DNA from: Eledone cirrhosa
Taxonomy: Eukaryota
DNA: 64,000 bases
Direction: 5' to 3'
Assembly (NCBI GenBank): GCA_964016885.1
Contig: OZ024750.1
Location: forward strand, 20,894,001-20,958,000
In this document: piece by piece, positions 3,727 to 46,432 of the stretch
Position numbering within the stretch: the stretch's first letter is position 1
Layout: the number at the start of each line of letters is the position of its first letter
The notes under the pieces: model-generated
What the model was told of the DNA's origin: nothing
Database searches by the model: none
What the model saw: only the letters and a program-made list of their open reading frames with translations
Made by a program: the position numbers and the translations under genes

Positions 3727-4278
3727 AATTAATAAAGTAATGAATAAACAAAAAACAGTTCCTTATATCAAAAAAATTCATCATTTTACGATCGTTTCTA
3801 GGATATATGTGATAGTGTTGGTATGCATATTCTATAGATCTATGTAAAATATTTATACAAACTATCAGAGGGAATATACATACCTACACATATATATGCT
3901 GTCTTCAGAAATAATTGTTTCTACTTTTGGCACAAGGCCAGCAATTAATCAGTACATTATTTTATCGACCCCGTAAATATCTTTATTTCTTCAGAGATAA
4001 TGATATTTGTTTATTGAAAAAACAAAGATTTAATACAATAAGTCTGTTTGGGAACAGGTTTTGAATTGACCAATAGAAAGAAAGTGAAGGTCAAGATAGT
4101 AATCTATTAGTAAGAGAACCTTAATTTATGGGTAGAGGAAGGTAGATTTCAGTTTTGGATGGAAAAGAATATTATGAATGAAAGAATATTTTAGGGATGA
4201 AAATAGGTCATATGCTGACCTCAGAAATAATTATATTTGTTCATTGGGACACTACCGTATATTTTTGGTAGATTTATC

Positions 4279-4282
<4 letters not shown>
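3727..4282 (-). mobile_element. Penelope-like 3' non-coding segment (family P) with hammerhead, interrupted by a SINE tail
   Basis: Aligns by eye to 30212-30590, which continues into a GIY-YIG ORF end, and to 7063-7192. SINE fragment at about 3915-3977 sits between near-duplicates TCTTCAGARATAAT (3902-3915/3988-4001). Confidence 0.75.
3781..3914 (-). ncRNA. Type I hammerhead ribozyme with extended stem II
   Basis: Minus strand: TTATTT-CTGAAGA-[cagcatatatatgtg...cacatatatccta]-GAAA-CGATCG-TA-AAATGA. Palindromic stem III, GUA triplet. Confidence 0.7.
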
Positions 4283-6815: not shown

Positions 6816-6827
6816 ATATATATATAT

Positions 6828-7044
6828 ATATAGATGAGATTCTACAGGACTAGAACTGTTTCATTCTTTAGAAATCATCAGGAATCTCTGATTCATCAGG
6901 AATCTCAGATTCCTGATAATTTCTAAAGAATGAAACAGTTCTAGTCCTGTAGAATCTCATCTATATTAAAACTTTTATACTCTGCAATGTATTGAGTACC
7001 TTACTTACTGTGGTTACCTCCGATTCAACCCGGAATAACGTAAT
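6828..7044 (+). mobile_element. Fold-back Penelope-like/retrozyme element, family B
   Basis: Arms about 6828-6887/6907-6966, tail with ATTGAGTACC (6991-7000), TA-flanked. Older relative at 29353-29543. Confidence 0.85.
6836..6888 (-). ncRNA. Type I hammerhead ribozyme, intact core
   Basis: GAGATTC-CTGATGA-TTTCTAAAGAAT-GAAA-CAGttctagtcCTG-TA-GAATCTC, with a 7-bp stem I. The plus-strand copy (6907-6958) has CTGATAA, an uncompensated G8A. Confidence 0.85.
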
Positions 7045-7062
7045 ATATATATATATATATAT

Positions 7063-7192
7063 AAAATATTAAACAAATAATGAATAAAACAATGAAACAG
7101 TTCCTTATATTAAACAAAAAAAGTTCATTATTTAACGATCGTTTCTAGGATATATATGACACTACCGTAAACTCTTGGTAGATTTATCTACA
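7063..7192. mobile_element. Short family P fragment: inverted piece plus 3' tail
   Basis: Shares AACAGTTCCTTATAT...ACGATCGTTTCTAGGATATAT with 3750-3810, and the tail GACACTACCGTA...TGGTAGATTTATCTACA with 4248-4282. Confidence 0.7.
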
Positions 7193-10527: not shown

Positions 10528-10588
10528 TTTCATTTACCAGTGGTTTCTTAAAAGCAAAAAAAATTTGCTTTCAATCATCAGAATGAAA
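10528..10588 (-). ncRNA. Type I hammerhead ribozyme, mirror copy
   Basis: TTTCATT-CTGATGA-TTGAAAGC...GCTTTTAA-GAAA-CCACTGG-TA-AATGAAA on the minus strand. Confidence 0.88.
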
Positions 10589-10609
10589 AAAACCTGGCAT
10601 CTAGGAATT

Positions 10610-10670
10610 TTTCGTTCTGATGATTGAAAGCAATTTTTTTTGGCTTTTAAGAAACCACTGGTAAATGAAA
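10610..10670 (+). ncRNA. Type I hammerhead ribozyme, canonical core
   Basis: TTTCGTT-CTGATGA-TTGAAAGC...GCTTTTAA-GAAA-CCACTGG-TA-AATGAAA. Predicted cleavage after A10663. Confidence 0.88.
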
Positions 10671-29352: not shown

Positions 29353-29543
29353 TGAGTCTCGGTTTCAATCGGGGGTAACCACTCTAAGAAAGGTACTCAA
29401 TATAAGTTGTTTAATATAGACATGGTTTGTTCAGGTCTAGAACTGCTTCATTTTTTTTAAAGAAACAGTTCTAGTCCTTTAGAAACCATTTCTATATTTA
29501 ACGTGAATTATAAATAATGCGTGGTCCATCAACCCCTTATTTT
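29353..29543 (-). mobile_element. Diverged family B fold-back element
   Basis: Minus tail TATTGAGTACCTT...GTGGTTACCCCCGATT. Imperfect arms about 29411-29449/29462-29500 containing GAAACAGTTCTAGTCC. Confidence 0.7.
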
Positions 29544-29592: not shown

Positions 29593-29602
29593 ATTATATA
29601 AA

Positions 29603-29938
<336 letters not shown>

Positions 29939-29976
29939 TATATATATATATATATATATATAATTATATATATATA

Positions 29977-30022
<46 letters not shown>

Positions 30023-30211
30023 TATATATATATATATATATATATAATTATATATATATATATATATATAATTATATATATATATATATATATATAATTA
30101 TATATATATATATATATATATAATTATATATATATATATATATATATAATTATATATATGTATATATATATATATATAATTATATATATGTATATATATA
30201 TATGTATATAT

Positions 30212-31387
30212 AAATTAATAAAAACAATGAATAAAATCAAAGAAACAGTTCCTTATATTAAGGGATATATAAGTGTGTGGGTATGTTATCATATAGATCT
30301 ATGTAAAAAATATACAAACTATTTGAGGTAATATACATACCTACACATATATATACTGTCTTCAGAAATAATGATATTTGTTTATTGAAACACACCAACA
30401 AAGATTTAATATAATAGGTCTGTTTGGGAAAAAGGTTTTGAATTGACCAATAGAAAAGTAGTCAGTGGACAAGTTGATAGAATAGTAGTAGTAGAAATTT
30501 AATTTAGGGATAGAGGAATGCAGGCTTCAATTTTGAATGGAAATAAAACTTTGAATGAAAATATTACTTTGGGGATGAAATGAAGTCAAGCCGGTGAAAG
30601 GTACATGAAAATTTGATGTTATTAAAGAATAATGCTAATGTTAAAATAGAAGGAGAATAACATTTTAGGATAAATGTGTCAGTGAGAAATACCAATCTTA
30701 TTAAAAACATAAGGAATTTAGATCTATAAAAAGAAATTAAATTAATTTAATTGATAGGTATACTTATAGGGATACATTTATATTAATTCATATAGATGTG
30801 ATAAATAAAAGTTAGATATTATTAAAGAATGTTGTTAAAAACGAAGGAAAAAAATGTGGAGGGGGATAAATGTATTAGTGAGAAATAACAAACTGATAGA
30901 GACTACAAGGAATTTAGATTCATAGCAGGAAATTAAAATAGTTTATATGTATACATATAGGCAATAATTTTAGGAAAAGATAGCTGTAAAAGGGAAATAA
31001 AATTATGAAGTTCTCAGTAGTAAAATACTAATTATAGGTTAACTAAAAAAACCCTAATTATAATAATTTGTAAAATAAAAGTGTATATTAATTAGTTTAT
31101 AATATTTGAAAGTTTTTCTAATTCTATGATTGCACGATATAATTAAGTCTTGTCGCTTATTTAATAGGATATCCTTAGATTTCATTATTTCAAAAAGTTC
31201 CTGGGAACATAATCTACACTTATTTCTGTTATTTTGAAATAGGGTACTCCAGGTTTTGAGCACACTGCAGGTCAGGTTATAATCGATATTATTTTTTCTA
31301 TAATTATTAATTATTTCAGCCAAGGATGTTGTATTAGCTAATGCGGCATTTTTAAAACTGTGTTTGTGGGTATTAAATTTTACTTTA
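30212..31387 (-). mobile_element. 5'-truncated Penelope-like element (family P): endonuclease end plus long 3' non-coding region
   Basis: ORF end at 31054-31386. 3' region homologous to 3727-4200. The GAAA/stem III part of the hammerhead is deleted in this copy. TA-flanked. Confidence 0.8.
31054..31386 (-). pseudogene. C-terminal part of a Penelope-like GIY-YIG endonuclease
   Basis: KVKFNTHKHSFKN...NTTSLAEII...VLK...KCRLCSQELFEI...LLNKRQDLIISCNH, matching the PLE pattern HKxSF...TxLS...CxLCxxE...LLNKRxEL..xCxH. Confidence 0.8.
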
Positions 31388-31399
31388 TGTATATATATG

Positions 31400-31430
<31 letters not shown>

Positions 31431-31632
31431 GTATATATATACATATACATATATATATATATATACATATACACACACATATATGCATCATTGTGTATAT
31501 ACATGTGAGGGGGGGTCTTTCTCGGTGTGTGAATCTCTCTCCTTTTTCCCCTCTCTCTCTCTGTGCTAATTCAGTCGTATTACTTTGGACTTTCTGCTTT
31601 ATGTATCCACAGGCTTATCTGACACGACTCGT

Positions 31633-31870: not shown

Positions 31871-33241
31871 TTTCACGTACTATAATATCTTTGAATATTG
31901 CAAAAGTTACTTTCAAAATTATACAGAAAATATGTAATATGTCAGATGCAGCTAGATGACTCTCTCTCTCTCTCTCTCTCTCACATATAGTCTTTGTTGT
32001 GATCCAAGTTTTGTCTCTGAATTCGGGAATAGAGGTTGAGGTTTAGTTTAGCGAGCGTTATGAGTGCAGCACAGATGTTGGTTTACAGTAGTCTTTGCAT
32101 GGTTTGTTTATGTGTTAAGGCTATCAACGGTCTTATTTACATACCTTCGTTAATGATATGCCGGAAATTAAGTTGAAGTCGAATGTATTTTACAACAGAT
32201 TAAATACCCTGTACATGGAATGAACTGAAAATCAAGAGAGACAAATCATTAAAACAAAATGCATATATGTTTCAAAGACATGAATGCATGTAAAATATAC
32301 GTAGGTTTTTTCAATTATTCACTCAATCATATGAAGGGGGATATATTTTAAATAGACTACTTCGTATGTAGCTATACAAAACATAAGACATCGTAAGAAT
32401 AGGTTTAGGAAACTTCGAGTATTTCGATCTAAACCTATGCAGTAGTATATTATCTATAGGATAGGTTTACATTTTCGGATGTAACATTGAGATCATGGAA
32501 TTGTAGGAAATATCTAGAGATACTCGTGAAATACATTGAAATTTCCAAGTTTCAAGACTTTTCGTGGGCTTTGTACAGGAATACATTCACGGTGCATTTG
32601 GCAAATATGTACAAAGAACATACACACACATGCATATATGAAGTACGTTCAAGTATGGAAGCACGTGTACATACATATATCTATTATATGTTATACCATG
32701 CATGATCCATATTACGTGTGTGTACCGATAAATATTTCATTGAAAATTAAGAATTATAAAAGTCAAACATCAATGAAAAATAAATATAAAACTATTATTA
32801 TAATCCAGTTTTATGAATCAAGTCACGTTGCCTTGATGCCCAGTTCAATTAGAGGGACTCCGTTAAACATGAAAGAGGTATGGGGGGATCTTTTATATTT
32901 TTTCTACATTAAGCTTCAATGGAACGCTGATGGCAACGCATAAAAAGTGAAATGCAGTGTTGAGATTAAACGGTTAGCTATTTGAATCTTATGAAAGCGC
33001 ATCTCAACAAATTATAATTACTTTGGACAATCTTGATAATAACTCTTTTTAGCAAGGCAATTGCTCTTTTATATGGCTATGGATATATTTTTCGACAATC
33101 AATTGCGTGATGTAATCTGACAGAAAACCAGAGTCAACGCTATTATCTGATGAAAGTGTTAAAAATGAAATTGGCTTTTCAAAGAAAATACCGAAGAAAC
33201 AAGAAGCGAATTGACTTTTCAAGCACTGATTAGTCACTTTA

Positions 33242-39110: not shown

Positions 39111-39545
39111 AAAGAATAGAGGTGTAACACACTAGTTATTATATATTGGTAAACGGAATAGAAAATGCTGACAAATTGTTCACAGTTGAAAAATGGTTTA
39201 ATTAGGAATAAAAGAGTATTAGTGATCGTATGGGTTAGCATTCAGTTGTGGTTTTAAGTTTTTAAGTTTTTACCGGTTGCGCATTTCTAAATGCTTTTCA
39301 AAAATAATTTTGAGATAGAGTGTCCGTGCTGTTTGCTCTGATCTCAGAGATCAGAGCAAACAGCACGGACACTCTATCTCAAAATTATTTTTGAAAAGCA
39401 TTTAGAAATGCGCAACCGGTAAAAACTTAAAAACTTAAAACCACAACTGAATGCTAACCCATACGATCACTAATACTCTTTTATTCCTAATTAAACCATT
39501 TTTCAACTGTGAACAATTTGTCAGCATTTTCTATTCCGTTTACCA

Positions 39546-45438: not shown

Positions 45439-46211
45439 TGTATATATTTTTATTATTTATATAAGAAAAGAAAAAAAAGGACAATAATAAAACTATCTTA
45501 TCGGATATTCAACTTTTATTCTGAATACAAACATTGACAGCTGCTTTAAAATAATATTAAATGACAAAACCTACATTTGTAAACAGAGATGCGAAAATAT
45601 TTTATAGCTTTCTATTTTATCGAAATATATTGATGCCATAAATATTTTATGCAACTCTTAATACAAAAGCTACTCCGTTGAGTGGAAATAGAACTGTTTT
45701 ATATTCATGTGTTTATGATGTTGTTAATACACGGAAATATATTTTAGGTTATAACATGATATTCCTTTATTCTTTTAATGGTTGCGGTTATTATACCACG
45801 GGGAAGCTGGAACACCATCCTTGAAGTATTCAATTGTATCGAACCCAGTATATATTTTGGAAACTGATGCCGCTTTCCTCGGTGTATATTTCGTCTAATG
45901 ATTAAGATAAAGGATATAAGCACATACGTAAAAAACCATCCGCACACTTCTAACGTATATATAATCCGGCTCTTGGTAATATTATATTACACTAGTTGAT
46001 GATATCAGTTTAAGCTCTCAACGCTATTGCGAGAACAGAACTGTTTGTTAACCTAAATTGCAGATCGTATGTATAAAACAAGAAAGAACAACGTTCATTC
46101 TATTCTTATCTTCTACGCTTCTGATGAGCAAATTGGCACCAAATTTTGGCTGATCCTAAATAATTAAAGCTTTGAGCTACCGTAATCGTTTTTGAAACAC
46201 GCGTTACAAGT

Positions 46212-46247
<36 letters not shown>

Positions 46248-46302
46248 GTGTTAAAGTTTGCTTGAAGCATTGTGAAATGTGTAAAATATGTATATATATA
46301 TA

Positions 46303-46432
46303 CACTAATTCATTCTTCTGAAGAAGCACTAGCGTCCGAAACGTTAACAACGTCTTCCTGGTATTTGAAGCGTTAACCTAATATATTCCTTCCATATACT
46401 GTACCGATTGTTTTTATTTCAGTTTACCGTTT
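46303..46432 (+). mobile_element. Short microsatellite-flanked element with decayed minimal hammerhead
   Basis: TTCTT-CTGAAGA-agcactagcgtcc-GAAA-CG-TT-AACAA (46313-46350). Stems imperfect. Confidence 0.45.

What the first reader, a model, noticed from the sequence alone, without database searches (positions are those of the whole stretch)
30212..31387. Hammerhead-tail family physically linked to a Penelope-type endonuclease: candidate driver
A stop-free ~110-codon stretch encodes a GIY-YIG C-terminus with a CxLC...LLNKR...CxH ending. Its 3' non-coding region is homologous to 3727-4200, which holds an intact hammerhead. This ties the non-coding fragments to an autonomous PLE. The C-terminal Cys/His pattern may indicate the Hydra-type PLE clade (tentative, from memory).
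Basis: partly seen in the sequence, partly recalled or inferred. Interest (0 to 1): 0.72.

Follow-up and report, generated by a model that had tools for sequence, protein, structure and literature searches.

The report
Broken Hydra-clade retrotransposon with long ribozyme
This is a broken, truncated copy of a known kind of animal jumping gene; its family has over ten thousand ends in the genome, includes young intact copies, and carries an unusually long-armed, predicted self-cutting RNA into which a second small parasite has inserted again and again.

Summary
30212-31387 is a 5'-truncated copy of an abundant Hydra-clade Penelope-like element (Craig 2021). It lacks RT and the GIY/YIG motifs, has a conserved Arg changed to Lys, and has lost half its hammerhead in a 27-bp deletion. 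3727-4281 is no separate non-coding family but a truncated two-armed insertion of a younger subfamily. Full-length relatives exist: 813-817-aa RT-EN ORFs with the Hydra motifs, TERT-like RT and GIY-YIG folds, followed by the same hammerhead; the youngest are 97-100% identical, some in tandem arrays. Beyond the published clade: a 95-116-nt stem II with compensatory changes (10,426 genomic matches), a 3' UTR grown from 0.7 to 3.8 kb, and a SINE hot spot at the ribozyme's edge (358 filled/1,488 empty sites against 18/597 at a control site; mostly independent insertions). Two-armed ends and twin stems beside them are present; this scan noted those, and long stem II, before on other DNA of this genome. 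Cleavage, expression and enzyme activity are untested. New member of a known kind.

The parts
31092..31386 (-). C-terminal 97 codons of the Hydra-type GIY-YIG endonuclease (after GIY/YIG; has H, CxxC, E, N, CxH; conserved R changed to K, W to C; stop lost by a 1-nt deletion)
31387..31470 (.). 5' truncation point running straight into (TA)n; no second arm seen
30212..31091 (-). 3' UTR of the older subfamily, about 91% identical to L003/L008, with an internal ~190-bp duplication (30602-30770 / 30802-30961, 71%)
30263..30374 (-). 5' half of the hammerhead: stem I 5' strand, CTGAAGA (30365-30359), long stem II; the 3' half is deleted between 30262 and 30263
29781..30211 (.). (TA)n target array next to the element's end site 1 at 30212
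3727..4246 (-). long arm of a truncated two-armed insertion of a younger subfamily, ending at site 1 in (TA)n
3778..3915 (-). complete hammerhead letters with 103-nt stem II; predicted cut between 3787 and 3786
3916..3987 (-). 5'-truncated SINE tail inserted at the ribozyme edge, 14-bp duplication at 3902-3915 and 3988-4001
4247..4281 (+). short inverted arm ending at site 2 (tail end) in (TA)n
7066..7191 (.). third, tiny two-armed insertion of the youngest subfamily (GUU cut triplet; 3' half of the hammerhead only; site 1 left, site 2 right)

Best explanation
The flagged stretch is a dead, 5'-truncated insertion of an autonomous Hydra-clade Penelope-like retrotransposon, and the hammerhead fragments in the window are truncated ends of the same family, likely written into (TA)n repeats by the RT-endonuclease of intact copies elsewhere in the genome. 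Shown: one unit is tail/5' UTR, an ~815-aa RT-EN ORF, a 0.7-3.8-kb 3' UTR, the hammerhead, end site 1, and ~131 nt further end site 2; units occur head to tail, ends run into (TA)n/(CA)n, and two-armed insertions have one end of each kind. Inferred: read-through RNA from tandem units binds the protein; the GIY-YIG domain cuts (TA)n; RT starts at either of two sites, each 5-8 nt before a bulged RNA stem, from the two sides of the cut; the cDNAs stop early and join, which gives the truncated and inverted copies. The hammerhead is predicted to fold with an extended stem II and to cut as a dimer or with protein help; it need not be required for insertion. The SINE most likely enters later, at DNA level, through a LINE enzyme that prefers ATTAT sites; its duplication rebuilds the core.
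For: Hydra motifs in full ORFs: all seven tested in 14 of 21, one missing in the other 7 (definitions). RT model's best matches are TERTs; EN model (pLDDT 94) matches I-TevI, Z 9.2, rmsd 2.3, 89 aligned, then EndoII and UvrC. Whole hammerhead downstream of 13 of 21 full ORFs within the DNA fetched. 83 of 88 non-read-through ends enter (TA)n/(CA)n; 20 of 21 resolved two-armed insertions have one site-1 and one site-2 end. 5' break points spread from 3 to over 1,500 nt upstream of the core and no tandem hammerhead monomers in 30 of 30 copies picked by the ribozyme alone. Across subfamilies four pairs change on both sides, and N7 (A 132, G 7) and H17 (A 121, U 17, C 1) vary as the hammerhead consensus allows. 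Two RT start sites and a protein-assisted, dispensable hammerhead are shown for another PLE (PMC11167929).
Against: No tree with named PLE clades was built; clade rests on motifs. Foldseek alone gave no EN match at E<=0.001 and Pfam none for the family's own proteins. Covariation is nil among 40 close copies and, among 28 copies that I chose to span subfamilies, the count of pairs is reached by 78 of 500 shuffles; copies are related and the structure came from these sequences. The pair closing stem II is C-A in 129 of 139 copies, not the usual G-C. No hammerhead family is among the 150 Rfam rows shown of 267. 6 of 21 full ORFs showed no hammerhead in the 0.1-4.4 kb fetched behind them and 2 only its 5' core at the edge. 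One two-armed locus (L035) has two site-1 ends.
Confidence: 0.88

Rival explanations
1. The hammerhead fragments are a separate non-autonomous, retrozyme-like family, and the coding element is its driver in trans.
For: Many copies hold no coding sequence; arm ends cluster just before the core (5 of 30; 10 abutting head-to-head pairs among the first 100 matches). Retrozymes derived from PLE ends are proposed in print (bioRxiv 10.64898/2026.07.22.740005, part 1 of 5 read).
Against: 3727-4246 is 95-97% identical to the UTR of ORF-bearing copies and nests among them; break points vary widely; none of 30 copies has two same-strand hammerheads within 1.5 kb; all upstream sequence is PLE UTR or the inverted arm.
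Confidence: 0.07
2. The core motifs and the long stem are a decayed or inactive hammerhead: an AT-rich hairpin kept for another purpose (RNA folding, promoter, RT pausing), no longer cutting.
For: C-A closing pair and 2-bp stem III with a 2-nt loop; metazoan PLE hammerheads cut poorly in vitro (PMC4209133) and mutants of one do not affect insertion (PMC11167929); covariation is modest.
Against: Core letters are shared by all subfamilies while the UTR around them grew fivefold; changes fall on N7, H17 and pair-keeping positions; the same C-A closure is listed for PLE-X1_cBra and U-U for Hydra families (File S2).
Confidence: 0.3
3. The SINE is captured during PLE reverse transcription: RT stalls or runs off at the 5' strand of stem I and jumps onto the SINE RNA's ATT tail and back, rather than the SINE inserting later into DNA.
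For: The SINE site coincides with the commonest fold-back point of arms; apparent duplications vary from 3 to 18 nt; one two-armed locus has the same rare SINE allele in both arms with different 5' junctions (L190).
Against: The SINE makes 9-21-bp duplications starting ATTA at unrelated sites too (14 of 14), re-hits its own duplications (L061) and has another repeated target (L051/L066); both arms are filled in only 2 of 7 two-armed loci not chosen for that, as independent hits at about 19% would give.
Confidence: 0.12

Closest known systems
Hydra clade of C-terminal EN+ Penelope-like elements, e.g. Hydra-1_Obim of Octopus bimaculoides (Craig et al. 2021, PMC8557442)
   Same: Single RT-EN ORF; RW[K/R], DKT, CxCX5C linker, no CCHH, CxxC and CxH; (TA)n targets; sense hammerhead near the 3' end.
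   Different: A different family from Hydra-1_Obim by eye (its N-terminus and hammerhead in the supplement differ). Unit 3.6-6.7 kb instead of under 3 kb; ~815 aa with a ~125-residue low-complexity insert; stem II spacer 95-116 nt where the Hydra rows of File S2 have about 11-25; RWR for RWK; clear pLTRs and tandem arrays; over 10,000 hammerhead ends.
PAc (Poseidon of Anolis; Frangieh et al. 2024, PMC11167929)
   Same: Two alternative ends downstream of the hammerhead, AT-rich targets, tandem organisation.
   Different: Different clade; its tail is 30-40 nt inside the ORF start, here ~131 nt in the 5' UTR; its activity is measured, here inferred.
Minimal/dimeric hammerheads of metazoan PLEs (Cervera and de la Pena 2014, PMC4209133)
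   Same: Type I, short palindromic stem III suited to dimer formation, located in pLTRs.
   Different: Helix II there 6-8 bp with conserved G10.1-C11.1; here about 25 bp in two segments with a C-A (older copies U-A) closure and a C-C mismatch.
Metazoan non-LTR retrozymes
   Same: Non-coding hammerhead-bearing pieces related to PLE ends.
   Different: No tandem monomers and no fixed unit here; the pieces are truncated copies of a coding element.

Membership tests
Hydra-clade PLE | Single ORF, RT with C-terminal GIY-YIG EN | tested here: met
   806-817-aa ORFs; TERT-like RT fold; GIY-YIG fold, I-TevI Z 9.2, rmsd 2.3, 89 aligned. Met by the family; the window copy has only the EN end.
Hydra-clade PLE | RWK motif at the N-terminus | tested here: met
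   RW[R/K] in 21 of 21 full ORFs, seen as RWR; database relatives have RWK or RWR.
Hydra-clade PLE | DKG modified to DKT | tested here: met
   SDKT in 20 of 21 full ORFs.
Hydra-clade PLE | CxCX5C linker and no CCHH inside GIY-YIG | tested here: met
   CxCX5C in 20 of 21; no conserved Cys pair between Y31 and Y44 in 103 aligned relatives.
Hydra-clade PLE | CxxC and CxH flanking the conserved E and N | tested here: met
   21 of 21 full ORFs and the window copy; C108, C111, E114, N127, C136, H138 at least 90% conserved.
Hydra-clade PLE | (TA)n insertion preference | tested here: met
   83 of 88 ends enter (TA)n/(CA)n.
Hydra-clade PLE | Canonical hammerhead near the 3' end | tested here: inconclusive
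   Core, three stems and cut triplet present, but stem II is 95-116 nt with a C-A closure: present, atypical, activity untested.
Hydra-clade PLE | Length generally under 3 kb (a tendency in the paper) | tested here: not met
   Units of about 3.6 to 6.65 kb because of long UTRs and a low-complexity insert.
Hydra-clade PLE | RT groups with Hydra references in a phylogeny | not tested
   No named reference sequences were available as tool-held sequences; placement rests on motifs.
Penelope/Poseidon, Neptune, Nematis, Naiad | CCHH motif with two Cys between GIY and YIG (all); N-terminal EN (Naiad) | tested here: not met
Type I hammerhead ribozyme | CUGANGA, GAAA, NUH with helices I-III | tested here: met
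   10,426 genomic matches to two exclusive patterns, reversed controls 0; not met by the flagged copy.
Type I hammerhead ribozyme | Self-cleavage | not testable with these tools
   No RNA run was listed.
Non-LTR retrozyme | Tandem non-coding monomers each with a hammerhead | tested here: not met
   0 of 30 copies with two same-strand hammerheads within 1.5 kb.

The most novel reading that the evidence does not exclude
The 5' strand of hammerhead stem I is a working junction of the PLE reverse transcriptase: cDNA arms end there and, at the same letters, the enzyme jumps onto SINE RNA and back, so that a Penelope-type RT captures a SINE into its own ribozyme without destroying it; the young intact 813-aa copies, with their twin start stems, make this and two-armed insertion testable in vitro.
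Probability: 0.12. Interest if true: 0.72.

Novelty: new member of a known kind. Interest (0 to 1): 0.38.

Why it matters
The Hydra clade is known from 27 mostly incomplete consensus families and has no biochemistry. This family supplies natural, near-identical intact ORFs, two sharply defined ends with a bulged stem beside each, a (TA)n target and a dated subfamily series, so it is a ready system for asking how PLEs choose RT start sites and make inverted copies. Its ribozyme is too long for usual descriptors, which suggests that hammerhead counts in such genomes are low. The SINE hot spot is a clear case of one parasite repeatedly hitting another's ribozyme while rebuilding the core. The flagged copy itself is an ordinary fossil.

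Tried and rejected
Rfam: no hammerhead family among the 150 rows shown of 267. Pfam: nothing for the window peptide or two long ORFs; PDB sequence search nothing usable; a word-indexed homologue search with the EN region found none although the exhaustive one found 4,629. No RNA holder listed; three contig runs of one study were laid and served only to confirm the 1-nt loss near 31094. ARAGORN found no tRNA gene in four SINE loci, so 'tRNA-derived' is only my reading of A/B-box-like letters. Covariation among 40 close copies gave nothing. The tail region does not fold better than shuffles (z -0.4 to -1.6). Rejected: this copy as driver; a single inherited SINE-bearing master (25 different junctions in 27 sites; filled copies scattered over the UTR tree; inheritance seen once, L188/L189); 47,798 first-look candidates as a copy number, since other Hydra-type families share the words. 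The first six copies with a start codon were all interrupted; intact ones appeared only with an N-terminal query. Literature searches (listings and abstract starts only) showed no paper on this family, on a stem II of this length in PLEs or on a SINE hot spot in a hammerhead; subscription journals, Repbase and Dfam were not covered.

Full report
What is at the coordinates. The minus strand holds a 120-codon stop-free frame at 31054-31416. Ten codons are (TA)n, and the last ~13 are read-through after a 1-nt loss near 31094. The remaining 97 codons are 84% identical to residues 628-723 of a long open frame elsewhere in the genome. Downstream lie about 880 nt of non-coding DNA ending at 30212 in a long (TA)n array. 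This UTR matches 3727-4246 in three pieces at 78-88%. The host is an animal, likely an octopod: inferred from the one named database relative (P0025, Octopus bimaculoides) and from my recollection of octopod SINEs.

The protein. Pfam does not recognise the peptide. A genome search returned 150 of 150 scored matches at 78-90% apart from the window itself. With an N-terminal query, 37 of 150 matches by my count lie in open frames of 823 codons or more without a stop. I fetched 20 such loci: 21 ORFs of 806-817 aa; 14 carry all seven motifs tested, 7 lack one. The motifs are those that define the Hydra clade in PMC8557442 (read: part 1 of 10, sections 6 and 11, passages, supplement parts 2 and 59 of 59 and passages): RW[K/R], DKT, CxCX5C, no CCHH, CxxC and CxH. 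That paper lists Hydra-1_Obim from an octopus; its N-terminus and hammerhead differ from ours by eye. A model of a 725-aa frame matches telomerase RTs best (E 1.4e-9). A model of the linker-EN part (pLDDT 94) matches I-TevI (Z 9.2, rmsd 2.3, 89 aligned), EndoII and UvrC; Foldseek alone gave nothing at E<=0.001; 27 of 103 relatives touch Pfam GIY-YIG at E<=0.1. The window fragment starts at residue 53 of this domain, after Y31 and Y44/G46, and has K for conserved R55 and C for W92. It cannot be an active driver.

The link to the tail. The whole hammerhead lies downstream of 13 of the 21 full ORFs within the DNA fetched; 2 show its 5' core at the locus edge, 6 show none in 0.1-4.4 kb. Upstream copies form pLTRs. 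The 3727 fragment is 95-97% identical to such UTRs and nests among ORF-bearing copies, while the flagged copy sits in an older group. Among 30 copies picked by the ribozyme pattern alone, the sequence upstream is PLE UTR or an inverted arm, break points run from 3 to over 1,500 nt, and none has tandem hammerheads. So the tails are truncated copies, not a separate family.

Ends. Of 92 ends, 54 stop at site 1 and 29 at site 2 (~131 nt further) in (TA)n/(CA)n, 4 read through to the ORF, 5 are other or unresolved. Of 21 resolved two-armed insertions, 20 have one end of each kind, including 3727-4281 and 7066-7191; L035 does not; L044 was ambiguous and left out (test prompted by earlier notes). This fits the one-sided tail of PMC8557442 and the two RT starts of PMC11167929 (main text read). 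A bulged stem begins 5 nt after site 1 (14 of 24 by script; in 6 more the script stopped early and one search shows the stem in these loci) and another 7-8 nt after site 2 (21 of 24) (lead). Their role is inferred.

The hammerhead. Stem I is 9-10 bp, the spacer between CUGANGA and GAAA 95-116 nt, stem III a palindromic CGAUCG. Two exclusive patterns find 3,263 and 7,163 matches, controls 0. A copy without SINE folds with z -2.9. Among 40 close copies there is no covariation signal. Among 28 copies that I chose to span subfamilies, four pairs change on both sides; cells and score exceed all 500 shuffles, the pair count does not (78 of 500); relatedness inflates this. N7 is A or G and H17 A, U or C, never G, in 139 copies. 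The closing pair is C-A in 129 of 139 and U-A in 7; File S2 lists the same C-A closure for PLE-X1_cBra and U-U for many Hydra families. PMC4209133 (parts 1-2 of 4) reports dimeric, weakly active PLE hammerheads with 6-8-bp helix II. The flagged copy lost 27 bp covering GAAA to stem I. Cleavage is untested.

Age series. The distance from stop to core is 0.70-0.75 kb in the older group, 1.0-1.7 kb in the middle one and 2.6-3.8 kb, rich in microsatellite, in the youngest. Youngest ORFs are 96.7-100% identical across chromosomes and stand in 6.65-kb head-to-tail arrays, which suggests recent activity.

The SINE hot spot. A ~190-nt SINE (131,597 exact 3' ends) sits at the 5' strand of stem I in 358 sites against 1,488 empty ones; a CATTATT site in the same UTR gives 18 against 597, about eightfold lower. 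Exact patterns, tandem fills and long duplications blur both counts. In 68 loci not chosen for it, 12 of 14 SINE ends inside the element are at this site. Junctions differ in 25 of 27 sites (two without anchor and one duplicate dropped). The SINE makes ATTA-starting duplications elsewhere too, and both arms are filled in 2 of 7 unselected two-armed loci, so later DNA-level insertion is the simpler reading; one locus pair shows an inherited SINE in both arms (L188/L189). The same letters are a common fold-back point: 5 of 30 arms and 10 abutting pairs among the first 100 matches. Capture by the PLE RT is not excluded.

Verdict. Real, correctly assigned to the Hydra clade, and largely explained by published work (an O. 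vulgaris repeat annotation, PMC13282606, passages only, reports active Penelope families without clade or hammerhead). The additions are family-level. Earlier notes of this scan reached long stem II, two-armed ends and twin stems on other DNA of this genome; none matched this sequence. bioRxiv supplements were closed, and only parts of the Craig supplement were read.

Noticed in passing
L113, L114, L116 and relatives, 3' UTR: A second abundant Hydra-type family whose hammerhead-like motif reads CAGAAGA instead of CUGAAGA, with a short stem II; at least three further Hydra-type families appear in the same sample.
   Followed up: no
L031:4129-4578 as query: 4,629 protein clusters at 50% identity match the Hydra linker-EN domain, far more than the 27 published families; a fourth linker Cys (CxCX5CX5C) is the best conserved.
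   Followed up: partly
window 6820-6950 (-) and 29360-29490: Another family in (TA)n with a CTGATGA...GAAA motif whose core is duplicated at 6881/6899; a decayed relative lies just left of the flagged array.
   Followed up: no
window 46110-46350 (+), 10580-10670, 33140-33180: Further hammerhead-like core matches from unrelated sequence contexts.
   Followed up: no
window 29594-29779 (+): A frame resembling the C-terminus of an RTE-type LINE (recalled, not tested), next to the (TA)n array.
   Followed up: no
window 39301-39391 and 2180-2267: Two near-perfect hairpins that draw chance miRNA matches in Rfam.
   Followed up: no
L051, L066, L061: The SINE hits one other repeat at the same letters twice and forms four-unit stacks on its own duplications.
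   Followed up: partly
window 4205-4246; L045:1230-1270: The 230-bp UTR duplication of the middle subfamily carries a decayed copy of the hammerhead's 5' half, and two arms (L163, L164) break at it.
   Followed up: partly
L037:626-1357: A fragment of a CCHH-type PLE endonuclease (another clade) beside a Hydra copy.
   Followed up: no
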